64,000 nucleotides of DNA, taken from the sequence record NC_135732.1. The stretch is one strand, 5' to 3'. This document shows, one piece after another, positions 158-51,683 of the stretch (positions are counted from its first letter, which is position 1; each line of letters starts with the position of its first letter). The translations under genes were made by a program, and so were the position numbers. The DNA comes from a phage. Under the pieces are notes generated by a model. It made no database searches, was not told the origin of the DNA, and saw nothing but the letters and a program-made list of their open reading frames with translations.

Positions 158-568
158 TCATTTAAGTTTAATGCAGTTTTTAAGCTGGCGTTCCATACGA
201 TCCACAACCTTGTCTGGAACATCATGAATGCTTTTATTACCGTGGCGGTTTTCAACCACGATCACGGTATAACTATACCCATGACTGATTGCCATGTCAA
301 CATATTCCTGCACATGTTTTTCTTTTGTAAACGTATTACTTACCACGATACGGTCGTATCCCATACGCATCATATCTTCTACGTTATCTTTGCACCATTT
401 TGCTGCGAGTGTTACTTTACTTGCATCCCAGTTGTAATTGCCGTCATCGTCATACCAGAACATGTCGTTCTCAAAATGTGGATACAGACCCTCTAAAGAT
501 AGCGCATTTGCCAGTGTTGATTTGCCAGACCCTGGTAGACCACGCACGATATATAGCATTTTAGACAT
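158..568 (-). CDS. P-loop kinase, polynucleotide-kinase-like (kinase domain only)
   Basis: Walker A GLPGSGKST near N-terminus; track ORF 158..625 trimmed to ATG at 568 preceded by GGAGGG. Confidence 0.55.
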   Translation of the reverse strand: MSKMLYIVRGLPGSGKSTLANALSLEGLYPHFENDMFWYDDDGNYNWDASKVTLAAKWCKDNVEDMMRMGYDRIVVSNTFTKEKHVQEYVDMAISHGYSYTVIVVENRHGNKSIHDVPDKVVDRMERQLKNCIKLK

Positions 569-689
569 AGTGACCCTCCGTTTTAATTTCAACGGTAGTA
601 TACCTAACTGTTTTGTTAATTTCAAGTGTTGACACTAGGTTATTTGTGTGGCAGGATAGACTGACAAAATGACAAATGAGGAACGTATA

Positions 690-1604
690 ATGAAGTATTT
701 TAATGCAGACGACCTGGTTGACAAAGGTCTTGTAACCAGTAGGTATTACCCAGATCTCGGGTTAAAGATCTATAAATATGCTAGAAAAGTATTTTACAAC
801 AATTTATGGCATTTGTCCCCTCGTTTACTGGAGTGCCGAGGCATTGTTGTAGGTAATGAAGGAAATGTTGTGGCATGGCCCTTCACAAAAGTGTTTAACT
901 TGGGAGAAAACTCCACCAACCTGCCTGACAATAAGCTTGTGACTGCGGTAGAGAAAAAGAACGGATTCCTTGGTGTGGTATCATCTCATAAAGGTGACCT
1001 ATTGTTCTCAACAACCGGGTCTCTTGATTCTCCATATTGTAACCTTGCAAAGGAAACCATCCAAGAGCAATGTGGTAATTTAGATCTTATCAAGAAGGTT
1101 ATGGGCAATGAAAACATGACATTCATGTTTGAAATTTGTCACCCTTCAGATCCGCATATTGTTCAAGAAGACCATGGCGCATATTTGATAGGTTGCAGAT
1201 ATAATGATTCTGGAATAATGCTACCAGAAGCAGCTTTAGATGGGATTGCCAAATACCTTGGTGCAAAACGTCCTCACACTGTGCGTGAAATCCCGTTCAG
1301 CTATGCAAAAGAATTAGCCGCAGAAACAAGGGGCGAAGGGTATATGATCCGTAAGCCTTACTACCCTTATGACCTGCAGCTGAAGATCAAGTCTCCATAC
1401 TACCTGGCACGGAAGGCCGTAATGAGGGGTAAAGCTTGGAAGATTTGGGATGATGATATCTTTAAACGTGTTGACGAAGAGTTTTACGGCATGGTAAACT
1501 TCATTCGTAACAATTACACAGAAGATGTGTGGAACTGCCTCCTGGAGCAGGAACGCCGTGAGATACTTGATTACTATTTCCACAACGAGAACTATATGCA
1601 ATGA
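690..1604 (+). CDS. RNA ligase, T4 RnlA-like (Rnl1 family)
   Basis: LECRGI, KVFNLGEN and EKKNGF (KxxG nucleotidyltransferase lysine) match T4 RNA ligase 1 as recalled; ATG 690 has GAGGAA RBS, alternative ATG 669. Confidence 0.7.
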   Translation: MKYFNADDLVDKGLVTSRYYPDLGLKIYKYARKVFYNNLWHLSPRLLECRGIVVGNEGNVVAWPFTKVFNLGENSTNLPDNKLVTAVEKKNGFLGVVSSHKGDLLFSTTGSLDSPYCNLAKETIQEQCGNLDLIKKVMGNENMTFMFEICHPSDPHIVQEDHGAYLIGCRYNDSGIMLPEAALDGIAKYLGAKRPHTVREIPFSYAKELAAETRGEGYMIRKPYYPYDLQLKIKSPYYLARKAVMRGKAWKIWDDDIFKRVDEEFYGMVNFIRNNYTEDVWNCLLEQERREILDYYFHNENYMQ

Positions 1605-1951
1605 AGAAGTTGATTGTGTGGCTGGATGACTTGAGAGATCCGTCAAATTATGGGCTCCCAGACGCTATTTGGCTAAAGAATTCCTCCGAGTTTATAGATT
1701 TTATTAACGATAGGGGAAAGCTCTACAGACGCGTTTCTGAGTGGCACATGGACAACGACCTTGGAGAGTTGTTCGAAGGGTACGATTGCCTATCTATGTT
1801 GGAGGAAAAATTTGTATTTGGTAAGCCCCCTGTAGTTGACAACGTGAAGATTTTCGTGCATACTTCTAACCCATCAGCGGCTCGTAAATTCATGCTTGCA
1901 GCTGACTCGTTTAAAAAGTTTGGAATAGAGATTAAACAAAACATCTACTGA
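1601..1951 (+). CDS. hypothetical protein
   Basis: ATG overlaps ligase stop (ATGA coupling); 116 aa. Confidence 0.5.
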   Translation: MKKLIVWLDDLRDPSNYGLPDAIWLKNSSEFIDFINDRGKLYRRVSEWHMDNDLGELFEGYDCLSMLEEKFVFGKPPVVDNVKIFVHTSNPSAARKFMLAADSFKKFGIEIKQNIY

Positions 1952-1959
1952 GGACACTT

Positions 1960-2721
1960 ATGCGACGACTGATTATTATCTCCGGTGCTGGTTTGAGCGC
2001 TGAATCTGGTATTCCCACTTTCCGATCTGGTAGCACTGCAATGTGGGAGAATTTCAGCATCGATGAGGTGTGCAACATCCACACCTTTGCCAAGAACTAC
2101 TACAAGGTGCATGACTTTTACAATGCACGTCGTGTAGCTCTAGGCGGTGTTGAGCCTAACCTTGCACATCTTCGGATCGCTGAGTGGTATTCCCGCTGGT
2201 CTGGTCGTGTGATCAACCTTACCACCAATGTAGATGATTTGCTGGAGCGTGCTGGTGTAAAACATGAAGATATTTTACATGTTCACGGGTATTTGCCAGA
2301 AATAGTCTATGAGGACGATGAAGGAAGTGACGTCATTAAGGACATTGGATACTCTGAGGTAGATGCAGGAAAGTATACCTGGGTTAAACCTAATGTGGTG
2401 TTCTTCGGAGAAGTAGCTCCGAAGTATACAGACATGTATGACCTGTTGACTTCTCTTACAAGCAATGATATGGTTATCCTTGTAGGGTGTTCCAACACAG
2501 TTATCAATTTTAACTGGGAGCTATTCCCTGCCTGCAATAAGGGCACCAAACTGCTGATCGTTAACAAATACGACTCACAGCATCTAGAGGAGAATGGCAT
2601 TTCACGTAGTGATATTTACCAGTACGAGGATCGCGGCATCCCGGTTTGGTTTAACGGGGCGGTTGACGCTTTCTCTGATAAAACATTCATTGAGACCGTA
2701 GAAAACTTTATGGAACTTTAA
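1960..2721 (+). CDS. Sir2-family NAD-dependent deacylase / NADase
   Basis: N-terminal GAGLSAESGIPTFR Sir2 signature; GAGGA RBS. Confidence 0.8.
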   Translation: MRRLIIISGAGLSAESGIPTFRSGSTAMWENFSIDEVCNIHTFAKNYYKVHDFYNARRVALGGVEPNLAHLRIAEWYSRWSGRVINLTTNVDDLLERAGVKHEDILHVHGYLPEIVYEDDEGSDVIKDIGYSEVDAGKYTWVKPNVVFFGEVAPKYTDMYDLLTSLTSNDMVILVGCSNTVINFNWELFPACNKGTKLLIVNKYDSQHLEENGISRSDIYQYEDRGIPVWFNGAVDAFSDKTFIETVENFMEL

Positions 2722-20422: not shown

Positions 20423-21219
20423 TAACAAACTGGCCGTTGTAAAACTCTCCTAACCTCATAAGAGGGGTCGGTAAATCCGGCTAACGGGGAACGCTAAGGC
20501 GAAAGCTATGCCAATCCCGTGACTAGTTCTTACAGGAGTTGGAACGGTTGTAACGACTAACGAAAGGCAGAAATGCTTGACAAACATTTCTGAACCAAGT
20601 AGTGTAGGGGTTAGTTGAAATACTAACTTCGAAATGGAGAGGCTCTATGAAAAAGATCATTCTTAATGGTGAAGAATCAAACTATGTGATTGATGAGGTT
20701 GGAAACGTATACGGAAAACGTGGAATGCTACACCCAATATTGTGGGGAGGTTATGGAAAAGGTAACAAGCATGTTAAACGCCGTTATATGTACTCTTTCG
20801 ACCACAAAGGTAAAAAGATTCGAATCCAAACCTCAAGGATTGTTGCCTTGTATTGTTTGCCGGATGTCCCAGAAGACCCTGAAAACTGGGAAGTGAATCA
20901 TAAAGATGGCAATACATTGAATGATCATCCGTCTAACCTAGAGTGGGTTTTGCCGGAAGATAATAAGAGACATGCTTTCCGAACAGGACTTTGTCCAGGT
21001 AAGTGCTATAGGAAAGTGCAGGCATACAAAGGGAAAACCTTGGTGGGTGAATATCCTTCACTCTATGCCTGTGCAAAAGCCTTAAATTTGAACGTAGGTA
21101 ACGTTCATAGGGCTATTGAAGGAAATGCCGAAGGTAAGCATCTCACAATAAAGGGTTATTATCTTATTGAAGTAGAGTAAGAGATAGTCTGGCCCTGTGG
21201 AAACACAGGGAGGAGACAG
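20423..21219 (+). mobile_element. group I self-splicing intron in nrdD (boundaries approximate)
   Basis: P/Q/R/S-like core elements AACGGGGAAC 20483-20492, CAATCCCGTG 20512-20521, GTAACGACTAACG 20550-20562, GAGATAGTCTGG 21181-21192; P9 hairpin 21193-21210; P1 pairing of exon CAACGGT with GCCGTTG 20433-20439. Confidence 0.65.
20647..21180 (+). CDS. HNH homing endonuclease (intron-encoded)
   Basis: VNHKDGNTLNDHPSNLEWV HNH motif; GGAGAGG RBS; inside the intron. Confidence 0.75.
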   Translation: MKKIILNGEESNYVIDEVGNVYGKRGMLHPILWGGYGKGNKHVKRRYMYSFDHKGKKIRIQTSRIVALYCLPDVPEDPENWEVNHKDGNTLNDHPSNLEWVLPEDNKRHAFRTGLCPGKCYRKVQAYKGKTLVGEYPSLYACAKALNLNVGNVHRAIEGNAEGKHLTIKGYYLIEVE

Positions 21220-46504: not shown

Positions 46505-46567
46505 AATACATCGCTCTCTGTTAGTTTATGCGTATATTATACACTGCAGTTTTCAGATGTCAACCTC

Positions 46568-46762: not shown

Positions 46763-47013
46763 AATTCTCTCCCAAATCATCTGCAATCTTATACCAAAAT
46801 CTCCAGCCAGAAAGCACACGGGAACACTTTGAGGATTGAATCTTTACTTGGCTCGGAAGTTCTTTTTCCGTATGGTAGGTAGAAATACCCTCCTGCAGAT
46901 TCGAATATAGCTCCTTCGGTTGTATCTACCACAGCAAGAATTAAGATTTTAGTCTCCACAGTGCTCTCCTCTCTTAGTTGTTGTGGAAACTATATCACCT
47001 CAGAAGATGGTCG

Positions 47014-47472
47014 TCAACACTTTTTGTACTCCACCACGATAATATCCATATCAAAAGTGGCAAGGTTAATAACGTCCTCTACGTGCTCCCACTTCAAACC
47101 GCCTATGCCGCACCCGATCTTAGGGATGTAGAATGGTAAAGTCGATCCACCGAATACCTCGTTGACTAGCTCAAAGCCTTTCAGGATTGAGAAATATTCA
47201 GCATTAGGTCCTGGGTAGAACTGAGTATACAGATTGATTCCGTAGACAATACCTCTCGGAGATAAGTGCTCCCATCGGGAGAATGCACCCAGTTTACTTA
47301 GGCAACCGTGTCTAGTCTCTTTGTCGGCTGACAATGCTTGAGGGAACTCACGGGCAATATCTTTCGCTATGCCTGCACCCATTGTGTGAAAGCAGTTACA
47401 ACCGTGGATCATGTGTCCTGCCCCTTTCTTGAAAAGGGAGATTAGATCTCCTTCTACAGTATCAATAATCAC
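47014..47472 (-). CDS. macro-domain protein (ADP-ribose binding / processing)
   Basis: VEGDLISL...MIHGCNCFHTMGAGIAKDI...PKIGCGIGGL resemble macro-domain motifs; start uncertain (GTG 47472 overlapping upstream stop; alternatives ATG 47553, GTG 47571). Confidence 0.55.
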   Translation of the reverse strand: MIIDTVEGDLISLFKKGAGHMIHGCNCFHTMGAGIAKDIAREFPQALSADKETRHGCLSKLGAFSRWEHLSPRGIVYGINLYTQFYPGPNAEYFSILKGFELVNEVFGGSTLPFYIPKIGCGIGGLKWEHVEDVINLATFDMDIIVVEYKKC

Positions 47473-47887
47473 GGTATGCCAGCTCCTCTTCCGCAATTTC
47501 AAAAAACTCAGTCCAGCACTGTGGCATATTGGAGTTACCGAAGTGGCTTTCATAGTAAAGGTTCTCACCACTCGGGAGATAGAAATCTGTTACCTCATAG
47601 AATCCACAATCGTCGCACTCACCTTCTTCAAACTTGGCCTCGACCTTAATACCGAGGAAGGTGAAAAGTTTATGGATATCTTCAGTTTCGAACTCCCAGT
47701 GAATGTTGTTTTCCGCATCGGTGTAGAACTGGATCAGCAGACCATTGTCCAGTTTACCAAAATACTCTGTGAAGTAACTTCCTTCCCAGAAATCTTTATG
47801 ACAAATAATATCCATGCGTTTGCCCATAATAATGGTGTGAGCGTTTTGGGCATCATCACGAATCAGTTTTGGCATTTCATAGATCAT
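47462..47887 (-). CDS. hypothetical protein
   Basis: GGAG RBS. Confidence 0.5.
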   Translation of the reverse strand: MIYEMPKLIRDDAQNAHTIIMGKRMDIICHKDFWEGSYFTEYFGKLDNGLLIQFYTDAENNIHWEFETEDIHKLFTFLGIKVEAKFEEGECDDCGFYEVTDFYLPSGENLYYESHFGNSNMPQCWTEFFEIAEEELAYRDY

Positions 47888-48153: not shown

Positions 48154-48249
48154 GGGCAGTGGCCTCCTGTTAGTTATACATCCCAGTTTTCTTCGTTCAT
48201 CACGTCCTCCCGTTCTATGAAGTTATAATTACACACCTTTCAACTTGTG

Positions 48250-48666
48250 TCAACAGAAAACTTCAACAAATTCTTCCACAGTTTTAATGTCGTGTGAAAA
48301 AGGTTTACGGCTATAACGGGCAATAGCACTATCAACCACCGCCCGGTACTCCAAATCTTCAGAATATTTCATGAAGCATTGCAGCGTCTCTGGGCAGATA
48401 GCTAAATAGCTCCACCACCCCTCTTCAGATTGGTAGTCGAATCCCATACTCTCCAACCATGAAGCATATACGCCTGCACCCTCAAGCCAGTGAGTATTTT
48501 CATCCAGAAACTTGTTAATAGACATGTGAGCTTCTAAGCATTTATCCAGCTCTTTTCCGTTAACCAGCCACGCACTGACCGTGGCGCATCCAAAGTCTAC
48601 AGATTGAGTTGACAGGTTGTATTGGTCATAGTTCTCAGGTTTAACAATGATATCTTCTAATGTCAT
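48250..48666 (-). CDS. hypothetical protein
   Basis: AGGAGA RBS. Confidence 0.5.
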   Translation of the reverse strand: MTLEDIIVKPENYDQYNLSTQSVDFGCATVSAWLVNGKELDKCLEAHMSINKFLDENTHWLEGAGVYASWLESMGFDYQSEEGWWSYLAICPETLQCFMKYSEDLEYRAVVDSAIARYSRKPFSHDIKTVEEFVEVFC

Positions 48667-48685: not shown

Positions 48686-48714
48686 AAAAATGCCCCACCC
48701 TTTCGGGCAGGGCT
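48686..48714 (-). terminator. rho-independent terminator (repeated element)
   Basis: Minus-strand CCCTGCCC-GAAA-GGGTGGGG hairpin then U-run; same 20-nt core recurs at 59681-59700. Confidence 0.6.
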
Positions 48715-48728
48715 ATGTTAACTAGATG

Positions 48729-49955
48729 TTAGAATGGGATGTCATCATCAAAGGCGTACTGTGCTGGATTCTGATCCATCGGGTCATCTTCCTCGTCATT
48801 TACAGGAGGAGCGTCTACAGTATTTTGCTGTGAAGCAGCTTCCTGTTTGGCAGCTTGAGGTTCTTGATGGTCAGTGGACCCAGCACCGTTCTTGATCCAA
48901 TCGTACAACGGCTCAGCCAGATTAGTCAAGACATCTTTTGCTTCTGCAGTAATTGCCGCTGCAAAATCATCAACTTTCGTTTTCTTGTCAATACGGCGAC
49001 AAGCGTTCAACACCGCATTACCGACACTGGCACCTACTTCATCTTCAGTTCGGTTGGTGGCTTGAGCATACTCTTTCTTAAGCTCAATAGTGACTACGTG
49101 CAGTGTTTTAGCCACACCTAGTGGGTCGTCTACCTTAAACCCGCGATCCAGGATGATTTGCAACGCATTGATGCTATGTCCCGTCTCCACACCAATAGGG
49201 TCGTAAGAGGATTTACGCTTGCCACCAGAGCCTTGAGTGCCGTTCTCTGCCTTAGGTGGATAGGCTTTGAAACCACTGATAATGTTTCCGGTGTCTTTGT
49301 CAACAATGGCTGCAACACGACCACCTACCACCAGGTCTTTAAGCTGCTCATCAGTAACAACCATGGCACCTTCGCCAATCTTGTGGTCATTAACAGTAAC
49401 CACGTTGCCAACAATCTGAGTCACATCGCCATAGATGCGTAAAACGTCCTGATTGGCATTCTGCTGAGGTTTCTGCTTCTGGCCTTGTGATTGTGCACCT
49501 TGTTGCTGTTTTTGCTGCTGAGTCGCTGCTGGAGCCTCTCCTGCACCCAGCTTGACCATCTTAGCCAGTGAGCCTTTGTAATAGGTCTTACCGTTATGCT
49601 CGTTTGCCTTCAAAGGGATATTTACGATCCATCCCGGCGTTACGGTTTCCCACTTGTCATCAATCTTAACAGAGACAGAGTCTTGATGACCAGGTTTAAG
49701 CAGCTTATCACCCATACTGATCCAAACTTCTTCACCACCTTGAAGCAGGTTATCAGAGGAATCCAGTTCAGAAATCAGTAAAGAGATGGTGTGGCTGGAT
49801 TCAATTTTCTTACCTTGCCACACAGTGGTTTTAATACCTGTTGTAGGATCAGCACCTTTGATAGGTTTGATGCTGACACGTTTAATCATGCCGTGAGCCA
49901 GTAAAACAGTTTCACGCGGATTCATCGGGTTAGCGAATTGTTGAATAACGCTCAT
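48729..49955 (-). CDS. SSB-like protein with C-terminal acidic DDDIPF tail
   Basis: C-terminus ...AFDDDIPF as in bacterial SSB; Gln-rich linker; AGGAGA RBS; N-terminal domain not assigned. Confidence 0.5.
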   Translation of the reverse strand: MSVIQQFANPMNPRETVLLAHGMIKRVSIKPIKGADPTTGIKTTVWQGKKIESSHTISLLISELDSSDNLLQGGEEVWISMGDKLLKPGHQDSVSVKIDDKWETVTPGWIVNIPLKANEHNGKTYYKGSLAKMVKLGAGEAPAATQQQKQQQGAQSQGQKQKPQQNANQDVLRIYGDVTQIVGNVVTVNDHKIGEGAMVVTDEQLKDLVVGGRVAAIVDKDTGNIISGFKAYPPKAENGTQGSGGKRKSSYDPIGVETGHSINALQIILDRGFKVDDPLGVAKTLHVVTIELKKEYAQATNRTEDEVGASVGNAVLNACRRIDKKTKVDDFAAAITAEAKDVLTNLAEPLYDWIKNGAGSTDHQEPQAAKQEAASQQNTVDAPPVNDEEDDPMDQNPAQYAFDDDIPF

Positions 49956-51620: not shown

Positions 51621-51683
51621 TGCTGTGGTCCCCTTTCGTTTTGATAGGGCCATTATATTAGGCCCTATCACTGTTGTCAAGTA

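What the first reader, a model, noticed from the sequence alone, without database searches (positions are those of the whole stretch)
47014..47472. Phage macro-domain protein in the minus-strand early block
Macro domains bind or hydrolyse ADP-ribose, O-acetyl-ADP-ribose (the Sir2 product) and ADP-ribosylated proteins or nucleic acids. A phage copy could reverse host ADP-ribosylation-based defence (DarT-like toxins) or process the product of the phage's own Sir2 at 1960. The start is unresolved: a GTG overlaps the upstream stop codon, and an RBS-supported internal ATG would truncate the domain.
Basis: partly seen in the sequence, partly recalled or inferred. Interest (0 to 1): 0.6.

Follow-up and report, generated by a model that had tools for sequence, protein, structure and literature searches.

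The report
Phage macrodomain, T4 Tk.4/AdfM homologue
This is a real 152-residue macrodomain gene of an rV5-like E. coli phage and a clear homologue of phage T4 Tk.4 (AdfM), so it most likely strips ADP-ribose off phage DNA to defeat the bacterial DarTG2 defence; it is a well-supported but ordinary member of a known family.

Summary
Window 47014-47472 (minus strand) encodes a 152-aa macrodomain. The window is a Vequintavirus (rV5-like) genome, and relatives annotate the same 459-nt CDS as "macro domain protein" or "phosphatase".

The AlphaFold model (pLDDT 96) is closest to BT1257/SCO6735, DarG, Poa1p and TARG1.

The protein aligns end to end at 40% identity with T4 Tk.4. A 2025 preprint named Tk.4 AdfM and showed T4 needs it to resist DarTG2. 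A 68%-identical copy sits in the tk.4 slot of a Krischvirus.

The start is settled. The GTG at 47472 is conserved and is an ATG in the Krischvirus. The internal ATG is Leu in close relatives and would remove strand beta1.

One added nuance: this family has an invariant Gln (Q84) where DarG, TARG1 and PhiKZ AdfM have the catalytic Lys. That matches SCO6735, an active thymidine-ADP-ribose DNA hydrolase whose Gln85 is essential.

The link to the phage's own Sir2 is not supported. T5 has the Sir2 orthologue, lacks this macrodomain and is DarTG2-sensitive.

Verdict: new member of a known kind. Activity in this phage is untested. Interest is low to moderate.

The parts
47014..47472 (-). Macrodomain CDS, 152 aa plus stop; Tk.4/AdfM-family stand-alone macrodomain
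47470..47472 (-). GTG start codon
   Evidence: Conserved as GTG in rV5_ev168, I29, APECc02 and PMBT16. It is ATG at the same position in Krischvirus Brandy, which has an in-frame TGA five codons upstream. T4 Tk.4 aligns from M1.
47483..47488 (-). Shine-Dalgarno-like GAGGAG, 10 nt before the GTG, inside the end of the upstream gene
   Evidence: Read from the sequence; conserved in the four Vequintavirus relatives. Function inferred.
47410..47412 (-). Internal ATG (Met21); rejected as the start
   Evidence: CTG (Leu) in rV5_ev168, I29 and APECc02, and TTA in Brandy. It lies inside strand E20-26, and using it would delete beta1 (E2-8) and helix H10-16 of the model.
47395..47397 (-). Codon of Asn26, invariant active-site Asn (H-G-C-N-C)
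   Evidence: Invariant in 109 homologues. Aligns with SCO6735 Asn27 in the HVCN motif, whose N27S mutant is almost inactive (PMC9411070). The PhiKZ AdfM catalytic-site Asn mutant has reduced activity (PMC13309987).
47221..47223 (-). Codon of Gln84 (N-x-Y-T-Q motif), at the position of DarG Lys80 / TARG1 Lys84 / SCO6735 Gln85
   Evidence: Invariant in 109 homologues. Aligned to the Gln of SCO6735 and BT1257 and to the Lys of DarG and TARG1. SCO6735 Q85A is inactive (PMC9411070).
47098..47115 (-). G120-C-G-I-G-G125 diphosphate-binding loop
   Evidence: G120 and G122 invariant, G125 at least 90% conserved. Aligns with the GCGLAGG / GVGNGG / GCGLDR loops of SCO6735, DarG and TARG1.
47462..47887 (-). 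Upstream gene, 141 aa, acidic (pI 4.3), overlaps the macro CDS by 11 nt; function unknown
   Evidence: phrog_8157 E=3e-82. No Pfam, NCBIfam or PADLOC hit. Found only in Vequintavirus and, at about 35% identity, in Krischvirus, where the one mapped copy (JSE) lies about 10 kb from the coordinates of the macro hits in other Krischvirus records. pI.
46789..46959 (-). Downstream small gene (56 aa), same transcription direction
   Evidence: phrog_15268 E=3.5e-43; annotated in relatives.
48225..48253 (-). Nearest upstream strong sigma-70-like promoter match (TTGACA-17-AATTAT with TG); candidate promoter of the unit that contains the macro gene
   Evidence: Consensus scan, 10 of 12 matches. Consensus match only, not shown to function.
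48692..48713 (-). Intrinsic-terminator-like hairpin (9 pairs, 7 G-C, followed by a T run) upstream of the unit
   Evidence: Consensus match only.

Best explanation
The gene encodes a stand-alone macrodomain enzyme of the T4 Tk.4 (AdfM) family.

Proposed mechanism:
1. It is made from the leftward block of small genes, probably early and by host RNA polymerase.
2. It binds ADP-ribose that the host toxin DarT2 has attached to thymidine in single-stranded phage DNA.
3. It hydrolyses that linkage, releasing ADP-ribose and restoring thymidine, so replication can continue. It therefore acts as an orphan, DarG-like 'antitoxin' carried by the phage.

The catalytic centre is of the SCO6735 type, not the DarG type. 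Asn26 and the invariant Gln84 would position the distal ribose. The G-x-G loops at 32-34 and 120-125 would hold the diphosphate. No Lys nucleophile is present.

Shown here: the gene, its start, the confidently predicted macro fold, its place in the TARG1/DarG/SCO6735/Poa1p structural class, its homology to T4 Tk.4, and the invariant residues.

Inferred: enzymatic activity, the DNA-thymidine substrate, the anti-DarTG2 role in this phage, and early timing.
For: - 40% identity (E=1e-40) from M1 to the C-terminus with T4 Tk.4.
- tk.4 was the single significant hit in a T4 transposon screen on a DarTG2 host, and a clean knockout sensitised T4 to DarTG2 (preprint 10.1101/2025.11.20.689424).
- A 68%-identical copy occupies the tk.4 slot (regB - vs.1-sized gene - vs - macro - ... 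- tk) in Krischvirus Brandy.
- NCBIfam and PADLOC DarG models match residues 5-148, i.e. the macro part only.
- AF2 model: pLDDT 96.2, pTM 0.91.
- G24, N26, G34, T83, Q84, G120 and G122 are invariant in 109 homologues.
- Q84 aligns with SCO6735 Gln85. SCO6735 removes DarT-made thymidine-ADP-ribose from DNA, and Q85A and N27S abolish or nearly abolish this activity (PMC9411070).
- A distant phage macrodomain, PhiKZ gp104, removes DarT2 marks from DNA in vitro (PMC13309987).
- T5 lacks this macrodomain and is restricted by DarTG2 (PMC11825919; preprint).
Against: - No experiment exists on any Vequintavirus copy.
- The T4 evidence is genetic, comes from a preprint and includes no biochemistry.
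- 40% identity does not guarantee the same substrate.
- The DarG catalytic Lys is absent.
- The longer Lys-bearing mobile loop that the SCO6735 authors link to DNA processivity is also absent.
- The protein is not basic (pI 6.0).
- By fold score it is as close to Poa1p, a small-molecule phosphatase, as to DarG, and it shares Poa1p's H-x-C-N-C motif and a Ser/Thr at position 30.
Confidence: 0.68

Rival explanations
1. It processes small ADP-ribose derivatives rather than DNA. It would act as an ADP-ribose-1''-phosphate phosphatase (like Poa1p) or an O-acetyl-ADP-ribose deacetylase, cleaning up products of the phage's own Sir2 / cREC / RNA-ligase repair module at 158-2721.
For: - The window encodes a SIR2-family protein, a cREC domain protein, a T4 Rnl1-like ligase and a kinase. 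Iyer et al. predict this set works like KptA and yields ADPr>P or Appr1p (PMC9503650).
- Poa1p is a top structural match.
- His23 and Thr30 match the Poa1p residues mutated in PDB entries 6lfs (H23A) and 6lft (S30A).
- Public records call the protein 'phosphatase' or 'Poa1p-like'.
Against: - The genes are 45 kb apart on opposite strands.
- Iyer et al. note that this sirtuin clade is not coupled to an adjacent macro gene.
- T5 carries the Sir2 orthologue (58% identity) without the macrodomain. T4 carries the macrodomain without a sirtuin (own knowledge, not tested here).
- The 'phosphatase' label comes from the old A1pp domain name (T4 note 'contains A1pp phosphatase motif'), not from an assay.
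- The Poa1p Phe152 position is Gly, and Poa1p's long insertion of roughly 20 residues is absent.
- The T4 homologue has a DarTG2 phenotype.
Confidence: 0.12
2. It reverses ADP-ribosylation of proteins or RNA, made either by other host toxins and defence ADP-ribosyltransferases or by a phage enzyme. This could be instead of, or in addition to, acting on DNA.
For: - TARG1 and SCO6735, close structural relatives, also de-modify proteins (PMC9411070).
- Macrodomains act on many substrates (PMC9503650).
- The active-site residues are conserved.
Against: - No ADP-ribosyltransferase or NADAR domain turned up in the Pfam scans of 26 ORFs (20 of them 130 aa or longer and otherwise unassigned). Many smaller ORFs and the ORFs already assigned from relatives' annotation were not scanned.
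- The TARG1 Lys84/Asp125 dyad used for protein de-modification is absent.
- The only phenotype known for the family is against DarTG2.
Confidence: 0.14
3. It is a non-catalytic binder (sponge or reader) of ADP-ribose or ADP-ribose-derived immune signals.
For: Some macrodomains only bind ligand (PMC9503650). The binding loops are intact.
Against: The residues needed for catalysis in the closest active enzyme, Asn26 and Gln84, are invariant across 109 sequences. A pure binder would not need that. A single small gene protects T4 from an enzyme toxin, which fits catalytic turnover better than stoichiometric binding.
Confidence: 0.04

Closest known systems
T4 Tk.4 = AdfM (anti-DarT factor macrodomain), bioRxiv 10.1101/2025.11.20.689424
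   Same: Same length class (152 vs 155 aa). 40% identity from the first to the last residue. Same HGCNCFHTMG, NLYTQ and PxIGxGIG motifs, including Gln at the DarG-Lys position. Both are stand-alone macrodomains in a block of small non-structural genes.
   Different: Different phage family (Vequintavirus vs Tequatrovirus) and different neighbours: here an acidic 141-aa gene lies upstream in place of vs. The window copy is untested; only the T4 gene has a DarTG2 phenotype.
Streptomyces coelicolor SCO6735 / Bacteroides BT1257 (PDB 5e3b, 2fg1/2afc)
   Different: About 21-26% identity. The motif is T-Q, not G-Q. The mobile loop after the Gln is shorter by several residues and lacks the Lys89/Lys94 pair. 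The host is a bacterium, not a phage.
DarG2 antitoxin macrodomain (M. tuberculosis / T. aquaticus; PDB 5m3i, 5m31; NCBIfam NF048014)
   Different: No C-terminal DarT-binding domain. Score 40.9 against the family cut-off of 250. Catalytic Lys80 is replaced by Gln. No adjacent DarT.
PhiKZ gp104 AdfM (PMC13309987)
   Same: A phage-encoded stand-alone macrodomain, shown to remove DarT2 marks from DNA. It shares the name AdfM.
   Different: Only 21% identity in a local alignment. T4 Tk.4 and gp104 share only a 23-residue BLASTP match. gp104 keeps the DarG-type T-K motif. It is a separate lineage and is imported into the phage nucleus.
Yeast Poa1p (PDB 6lfq) and human TARG1/OARD1 (PDB 4j5s)
   Different: Poa1p has T-S at the key position, a Phe in the second loop and a long insertion of roughly 20 residues. 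TARG1 uses a Lys84/Asp125 dyad that is absent here.

Membership tests
Macro domain superfamily (Pfam PF01661) | Profile score above Pfam's gathering threshold | tested here: met
   25.6 bits vs 22. The score is split over two stretches, so it is modest for the single sequence. The profile of 109 homologues hits macrodomain structures at E=1e-13 to 1e-15.
Macro domain superfamily (Pfam PF01661) | Three-layer alpha/beta macro fold | tested here: met
Macro domain superfamily (Pfam PF01661) | Glycine-rich ADP-ribose/diphosphate loops (G-x-G after beta2; G-x-G-x-x-G before the last helix) | tested here: met
   M31-G32-A-G34-I-A36 and G120-C-G122-I-G-G125, invariant or at least 90% conserved.
T4 Tk.4 / AdfM family | Full-length sequence homology to T4 Tk.4 | tested here: met
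   40% identity, E=1e-40, residues 1-150 vs 1-152. Relatives are annotated 'T4 GC 1557'.
T4 Tk.4 / AdfM family | Orthologous genomic slot in T4-like phages | tested here: met
   The closest non-Vequintavirus copy (68%, Krischvirus Brandy) lies between the vs and tk homologues.
T4 Tk.4 / AdfM family | Protects the phage from DarTG2 | not testable with these tools
   Needs plaque assays. Known only for T4.
DarG2 antitoxin (NCBIfam NF048014 equivalog) | Score above the curated cut-off; two-domain architecture with a C-terminal DarT-binding domain | tested here: not met
   40.9 bits vs cut-off 250. Only profile positions 3-141 of 338 are matched. The protein is 152 aa. The neighbouring genes show no DarG similarity.
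DarG2 antitoxin (NCBIfam NF048014 equivalog) | Catalytic Lys80 (T-K motif) | tested here: not met
   Gln84 at that position, invariant in 109 homologues.
SCO6735-type (Gln) thymidine-ADPr DNA hydrolases | Gln at the Lys80/Lys84 position, held by the conserved Asn | tested here: met
   Q84 aligns with Gln85 and N26 with Asn27 in the HMMER profile alignment. The functional importance of these residues comes from PMC9411070. MAFFT placed the SCO6735 loop differently, so the Q-Q equivalence rests on HMMER plus the published structural alignment.
SCO6735-type (Gln) thymidine-ADPr DNA hydrolases | Extended mobile loop with Lys89/Lys94 for DNA binding | tested here: not met
   The window has QFYPGPNAEY where SCO6735 has QHGMKTGSKGAPVRY. 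The window loop is shorter and has no Lys.
Poa1p-like ADP-ribose-1''-phosphate phosphatase | Poa1p residues probed by mutation in the PDB entries (His23, Ser30, Phe152) | tested here: inconclusive
   His23 is present, Thr30 replaces Ser30, and Gly stands at the Phe152 position. The Poa1p structure paper was not in the library, so the roles of these residues were not checked.
Poa1p-like ADP-ribose-1''-phosphate phosphatase | Appr1p phosphatase activity | not testable with these tools
   Enzyme assay needed.
TARG1/OARD1 | Lys84/Asp125 catalytic dyad | tested here: not met
   Gln84 and Gly124 at the aligned positions.

The most novel reading that the evidence does not exclude
The T4 Tk.4 / rV5 macrodomains could be a distinct Lys-less, Gln-type lineage of phage ADP-ribose erasers that works by the water-mediated SCO6735 mechanism, separate from the Lys-type PhiKZ AdfM. 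In rV5-like phages it might have a second job: clearing ADP-ribose-1''-phosphate or related products of the phage's own sirtuin-based RNA repair. One small enzyme would then serve both counter-defence and RNA-repair housekeeping.
Probability: 0.12. Interest if true: 0.5.

Novelty: new member of a known kind. Interest (0 to 1): 0.3.

Why it matters
If the assignment is right, rV5-like phages, which are used in therapy cocktails and are present in the BASEL collection, carry a built-in eraser of DarT2 DNA ADP-ribosylation. That helps predict their host range on DarTG2-positive E. coli.

The comparison also shows that the two phage proteins now both called AdfM, T4 Tk.4 and PhiKZ gp104, are distant lineages with different residues at the catalytic position (Gln vs Lys). 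This matters for mechanism and for annotation.

It also corrects the inherited 'phosphatase' label and the inconsistent start sites in public records.

Tried and rejected
1. Upstream acidic gene (47462-47887) as a mimic of the DarG C-terminal domain. There were no NCBIfam or PADLOC hits, including the DarG models. Its only other homologues are in Krischvirus; the one whose position I compared (JSE, about 42.7 kb) lies about 10 kb from where the macro gene sits in related Krischvirus records, though macro and partner were never mapped in the same Krischvirus record. Most small genes in this block are equally acidic. I ran no further search on it.

2. The longer 185-aa ORF from GTG 47571, and the 165-aa start used in the PMBT16 record. 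Both are rejected: T4 and Brandy begin at the position of 47472, and Brandy has an in-frame stop five codons upstream.

3. The internal ATG start. Rejected.

4. A search for a partner ADP-ribosyltransferase, NADAR or Nudix gene. Pfam scans of 20 further ORFs of at least 130 aa found only an HNH endonuclease. Smaller ORFs were not scanned.

5. The ICP1 'antitoxin mimic' AdfB (PMC11481870). It mimics DarG's C-terminal domain, not the macrodomain, so it is not relevant.

6. The CmdTAC paper. It says nothing about phage macrodomains.

7. MAFFT alignment A2 misplaced the SCO6735/BT1257 loop. For that column I relied on the HMMER profile alignment and the published structural alignment.

8. The Poa1p structure paper was not found in the library.

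Full report
**What is there.**
The minus strand carries an ORF ending at 47014. Read from the GTG at 47472-47470 it encodes 152 residues:

MIIDTVEGDLISLFKKGAGHMIHGCNCFHTMGAGIAKDIAREFPQALSADKETRHGCLSKLGAFSRWEHLSPRGIVYGINLYTQFYPGPNAEYFSILKGFELVNEVFGGSTLPFYIPKIGCGIGGLKWEHVEDVINLATFDMDIIVVEYKKC.

The window is an rV5-like phage (Vequintavirus). The 1.5 kb around the gene is about 96% identical to rV5_ev168, I29, APECc02 and more than 100 other records. Those records annotate the same 459-nt CDS as one of:
- 'macro domain protein';
- 'phosphatase';
- 'T4-like protein ... with Macro domain, Poa1p_like family, T4 GC 1557'.

**Is it a macrodomain?**
Yes, on all three lines of evidence.
- Single sequence. 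It passes Pfam Macro narrowly (25.6 bits, cut-off 22). It matches phrog_335 at E=1.8e-58 and the macro half of the DarG models of NCBIfam and PADLOC at about 1e-10.
- Profile. A profile of 109 homologues (A1) hits the solved structures BT1257, M. tuberculosis DarG, SCO6735, TARG1 and Poa1p at E=7e-15 to 7e-13.
- Predicted structure. AlphaFold2 with that alignment gives pLDDT 96.2 and pTM 0.91.
  - Foldseek returns the same five proteins first.

The protein therefore belongs to the structural class that PMC9411070 calls ALC1-like.

**The start codon.**
Three candidates exist: GTG 47571 (185 aa, the longest ORF), GTG 47472 and ATG 47412. Comparison settles it for 47472.
- T4 Tk.4 aligns residue 1 to residue 1 (MIVKYIKGD vs MIIDTVEGD).
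- Krischvirus Brandy (68% identical) has ATG exactly where the window has GTG, the same MIIDTV N-terminus, and an in-frame TGA five codons upstream.
- The GTG is conserved in four Vequintavirus relatives.
- The internal ATG is CTG (Leu) in rV5_ev168, I29 and APECc02, and TTA in Brandy.
- Codons 2-21 are under the same purifying selection as the rest of the gene (pN/pS 0.15 against rV5_ev168).
- In the model, residues 2-8 form strand beta1 and residues 10-16 a helix, at pLDDT about 97. Met21 lies inside strand 20-26.
- Truncation would also remove the G8-D9 motif. By general knowledge of macrodomains (for example Asp20 of Af1521, Asp22 of SARS-CoV-2 Mac1) this motif contacts the adenine. That last point is inference.

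A GAGGAG sequence lies 10 nt upstream of the GTG (47488-47483). The CDS overlaps the upstream gene by 11 nt, and the upstream stop is TGA 47464-47462. The PMBT16 record uses a start 13 codons further upstream; the comparisons above argue against it.

**What family, precisely.**
Homologues occur in 2,792 phage records, mostly T4-like phages, and also in Felixounavirus-size, Vi1-like and other large myoviruses. One database hit is named 'Tk.4'. T4 tk.4, whose RefSeq note reads 'contains A1pp phosphatase motif', is 40% identical over the full length.

The closest copy outside Vequintavirus is 68% identical. It sits in Krischvirus Brandy in the tk.4 slot:
- regB is annotated upstream;
- the upstream gene is a vs homologue;
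- the downstream 198-aa gene is thymidine kinase, 54% identical to T4 tk.

The window gene is thus an orthologue, or a horizontally exchanged copy, of tk.4.

**What is known about the family.**
- A November 2025 preprint (10.1101/2025.11.20.689424) screened a T4 transposon library on a DarTG2 host. tk.4 was the only significant hit. A clean knockout became DarTG2-sensitive, and the authors named the gene adfM. No biochemistry was reported.
  - The same study made a library of the Vequintavirinae phage Bas54. In the passages read, the DarTG2 screen is described only for T4.
- Independently, PhiKZ gp104, also named AdfM, was shown to remove DarT2 marks from a DNA oligonucleotide and to rescue DarT2 toxicity (PMC13309987).
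- T4 lacking its two other anti-DarT factors remains DarTG2-resistant, and T5 is strongly restricted by DarTG2 (PMC11825919).

**Active site: a nuance.**
Thirteen residues are invariant in the 109-sequence alignment: G24, N26, C27, G34, A36, D50, N80, Y82, T83, Q84, P117, G120 and G122.

Q84 (motif N-L-Y-T-Q) occupies the position of the catalytic lysine. The residues at that position are:

| Protein | Motif |
|---|---|
| Window, T4 Tk.4, Brandy, LilPanda | T-Q |
| DarG (FPTKK, Lys80), TARG1 (LITKK, Lys84), PhiKZ gp104 (FPTKD) | T-K |
| SCO6735, BT1257 (NMIGQH) | G-Q |
| Poa1p | T-S |

The Poa1p sequence was verified against 6lfq.

SCO6735 efficiently hydrolyses thymidine-linked ADP-ribose on DNA and protects against DarT. 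Its Q85A mutant is dead and its N27S mutant nearly so. Its authors propose a backbone- and water-mediated mechanism in which Gln positions the distal ribose (PMC9411070).

The window protein has the matching Asn26 and Gln84. It lacks the longer Lys-bearing loop of SCO6735.

The Tk.4 family is therefore a Gln-type enzyme. PhiKZ AdfM is a Lys-type enzyme and only distantly related:
- 21% local identity to the window protein;
- a 23-residue BLASTP match to Tk.4;
- hhalign probability 97%.

**The Sir2 idea.**
Window 1960-2721 is a genuine SIR2-family gene (E=5.5e-27). Next to it lie a cREC domain gene (1601-1951), a T4 Rnl1-like RNA ligase (669-1604) and a kinase (158-625, minus strand). This is the neighbourhood that Iyer et al. 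describe for 'Escherichia phage V5'. They predict a KptA-like RNA-repair system and note that it has no adjacent macro gene (PMC9503650).

A macrodomain could in principle clear Appr1p from such a pathway, and the fold is as close to Poa1p as to DarG. Several points argue against this:
- The two genes are 45 kb apart on opposite strands.
- T5 has the Sir2 orthologue (58% identity, E=3e-99) but no Tk.4-type macrodomain. The best tblastn hit has E=3.6 and the best HMM hit E=0.037, against 1.5e-59 for the window control.
- T4 has the macrodomain and, to my knowledge, no sirtuin (not tested here).

I keep this as a minor rival.

**Context.**
The gene lies in a roughly 30-kb leftward block of small genes, mostly unannotated, downstream of rIIB, helicase, primase/helicase and DNA polymerase.

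Sigma-70-like promoter matches are about twice the shuffled expectation between 44 and 52 kb (29 vs 14.4, sd 3.8). Most are on the minus strand, including perfect consensus sites at 51680-51652 and 46563-46536. A strong terminator-like hairpin lies at 48713-48692. Early expression by host polymerase is plausible but not shown.

The overlapping upstream gene (141 aa, pI 4.3) has no recognisable domain and no similarity to DarG. It is shared only with Krischvirus. The one Krischvirus copy whose position I compared (JSE, about 42.7 kb) lies about 10 kb from where the macro gene sits in related records, but both genes were never mapped in the same record.

**Verdict.**
This is a real, conserved macrodomain gene whose start is now fixed. 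It most likely acts as an anti-DarT2 DNA ADP-ribosylglycohydrolase of the T4 Tk.4/AdfM family with a Gln-type active site (confidence about 0.7). It is a new, untested member of a known kind. Interest is low to moderate.

Noticed in passing
window 158-2721: A compact RNA-repair-like module: AAA_33 kinase (158-625, minus strand), T4 Rnl1-like RNA ligase (669-1604), cREC 'cyclic-phosphate processing' domain (1601-1951) and a SIR2-family protein (1960-2721). It matches the sirtuin-centred neighbourhood predicted for phage V5 in PMC9503650. That prediction has not been tested experimentally, as far as the papers read here show.
   Followed up: partly
window 48729-49955 (minus strand): A 408-aa protein with no Pfam hit. 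It has a Gln-rich low-complexity middle and ends in ...FDDDIPF, the same last six residues as the C-terminal tip of E. coli SSB (from memory). It may be the phage single-strand DNA-binding protein, or it may compete for SSB-interacting host proteins.
   Followed up: partly
window 47462-47887 (minus strand): An acidic 141-aa gene (pI 4.3, phrog_8157, unknown function) overlaps the macro gene by 11 nt. Homologues occur only in Vequintavirus and, at about 35% identity, in Krischvirus. The macrodomain's closest outside relative (68%) is also in Krischvirus, which suggests gene exchange between these two phage groups.
   Followed up: partly
public records MG065654.1, MG065658.1 and others: Sixteen records named 'Campylobacter phage' (host given as C. 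jejuni) are at least 80% identical in DNA (most hits overall fall at 90-99%) to this E. coli rV5-like region. One encodes a 100% identical copy of the upstream protein. This is probably a host mislabel or contamination in those deposits.
   Followed up: no
L007 (PMBT16, PP554575.1) 562-1059; window 47473-47571: Public annotations disagree on the start of the macro gene. PMBT16 starts 13 codons upstream, and the mechanical ORF in the window extends 33 codons upstream. RefSeq still labels the T4 and APECc02 proteins 'phosphatase', a relic of the A1pp domain name.
   Followed up: yes
window 46536-46563 and 51652-51680 (minus strand): Two perfect 12-of-12 sigma-70 consensus promoters (TTGACA, 16 or 17 nt, TATAAT) in the leftward small-gene block. 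Promoter-like sites overall are about twice the shuffled expectation.
   Followed up: no
window 20647-21180: An HNH_3 homing-endonuclease-like ORF, apparently among the nucleotide-metabolism genes by position relative to the I29 annotation.
   Followed up: no
literature (PMC11825919): Some Vequintavirinae (Bas60-62) carry a NADAR protein, AdfN, that counters DarTG1. No NADAR domain was seen among the window ORFs of at least 130 aa that were scanned, but smaller ORFs and the rest of the genome were not checked.
   Followed up: partly
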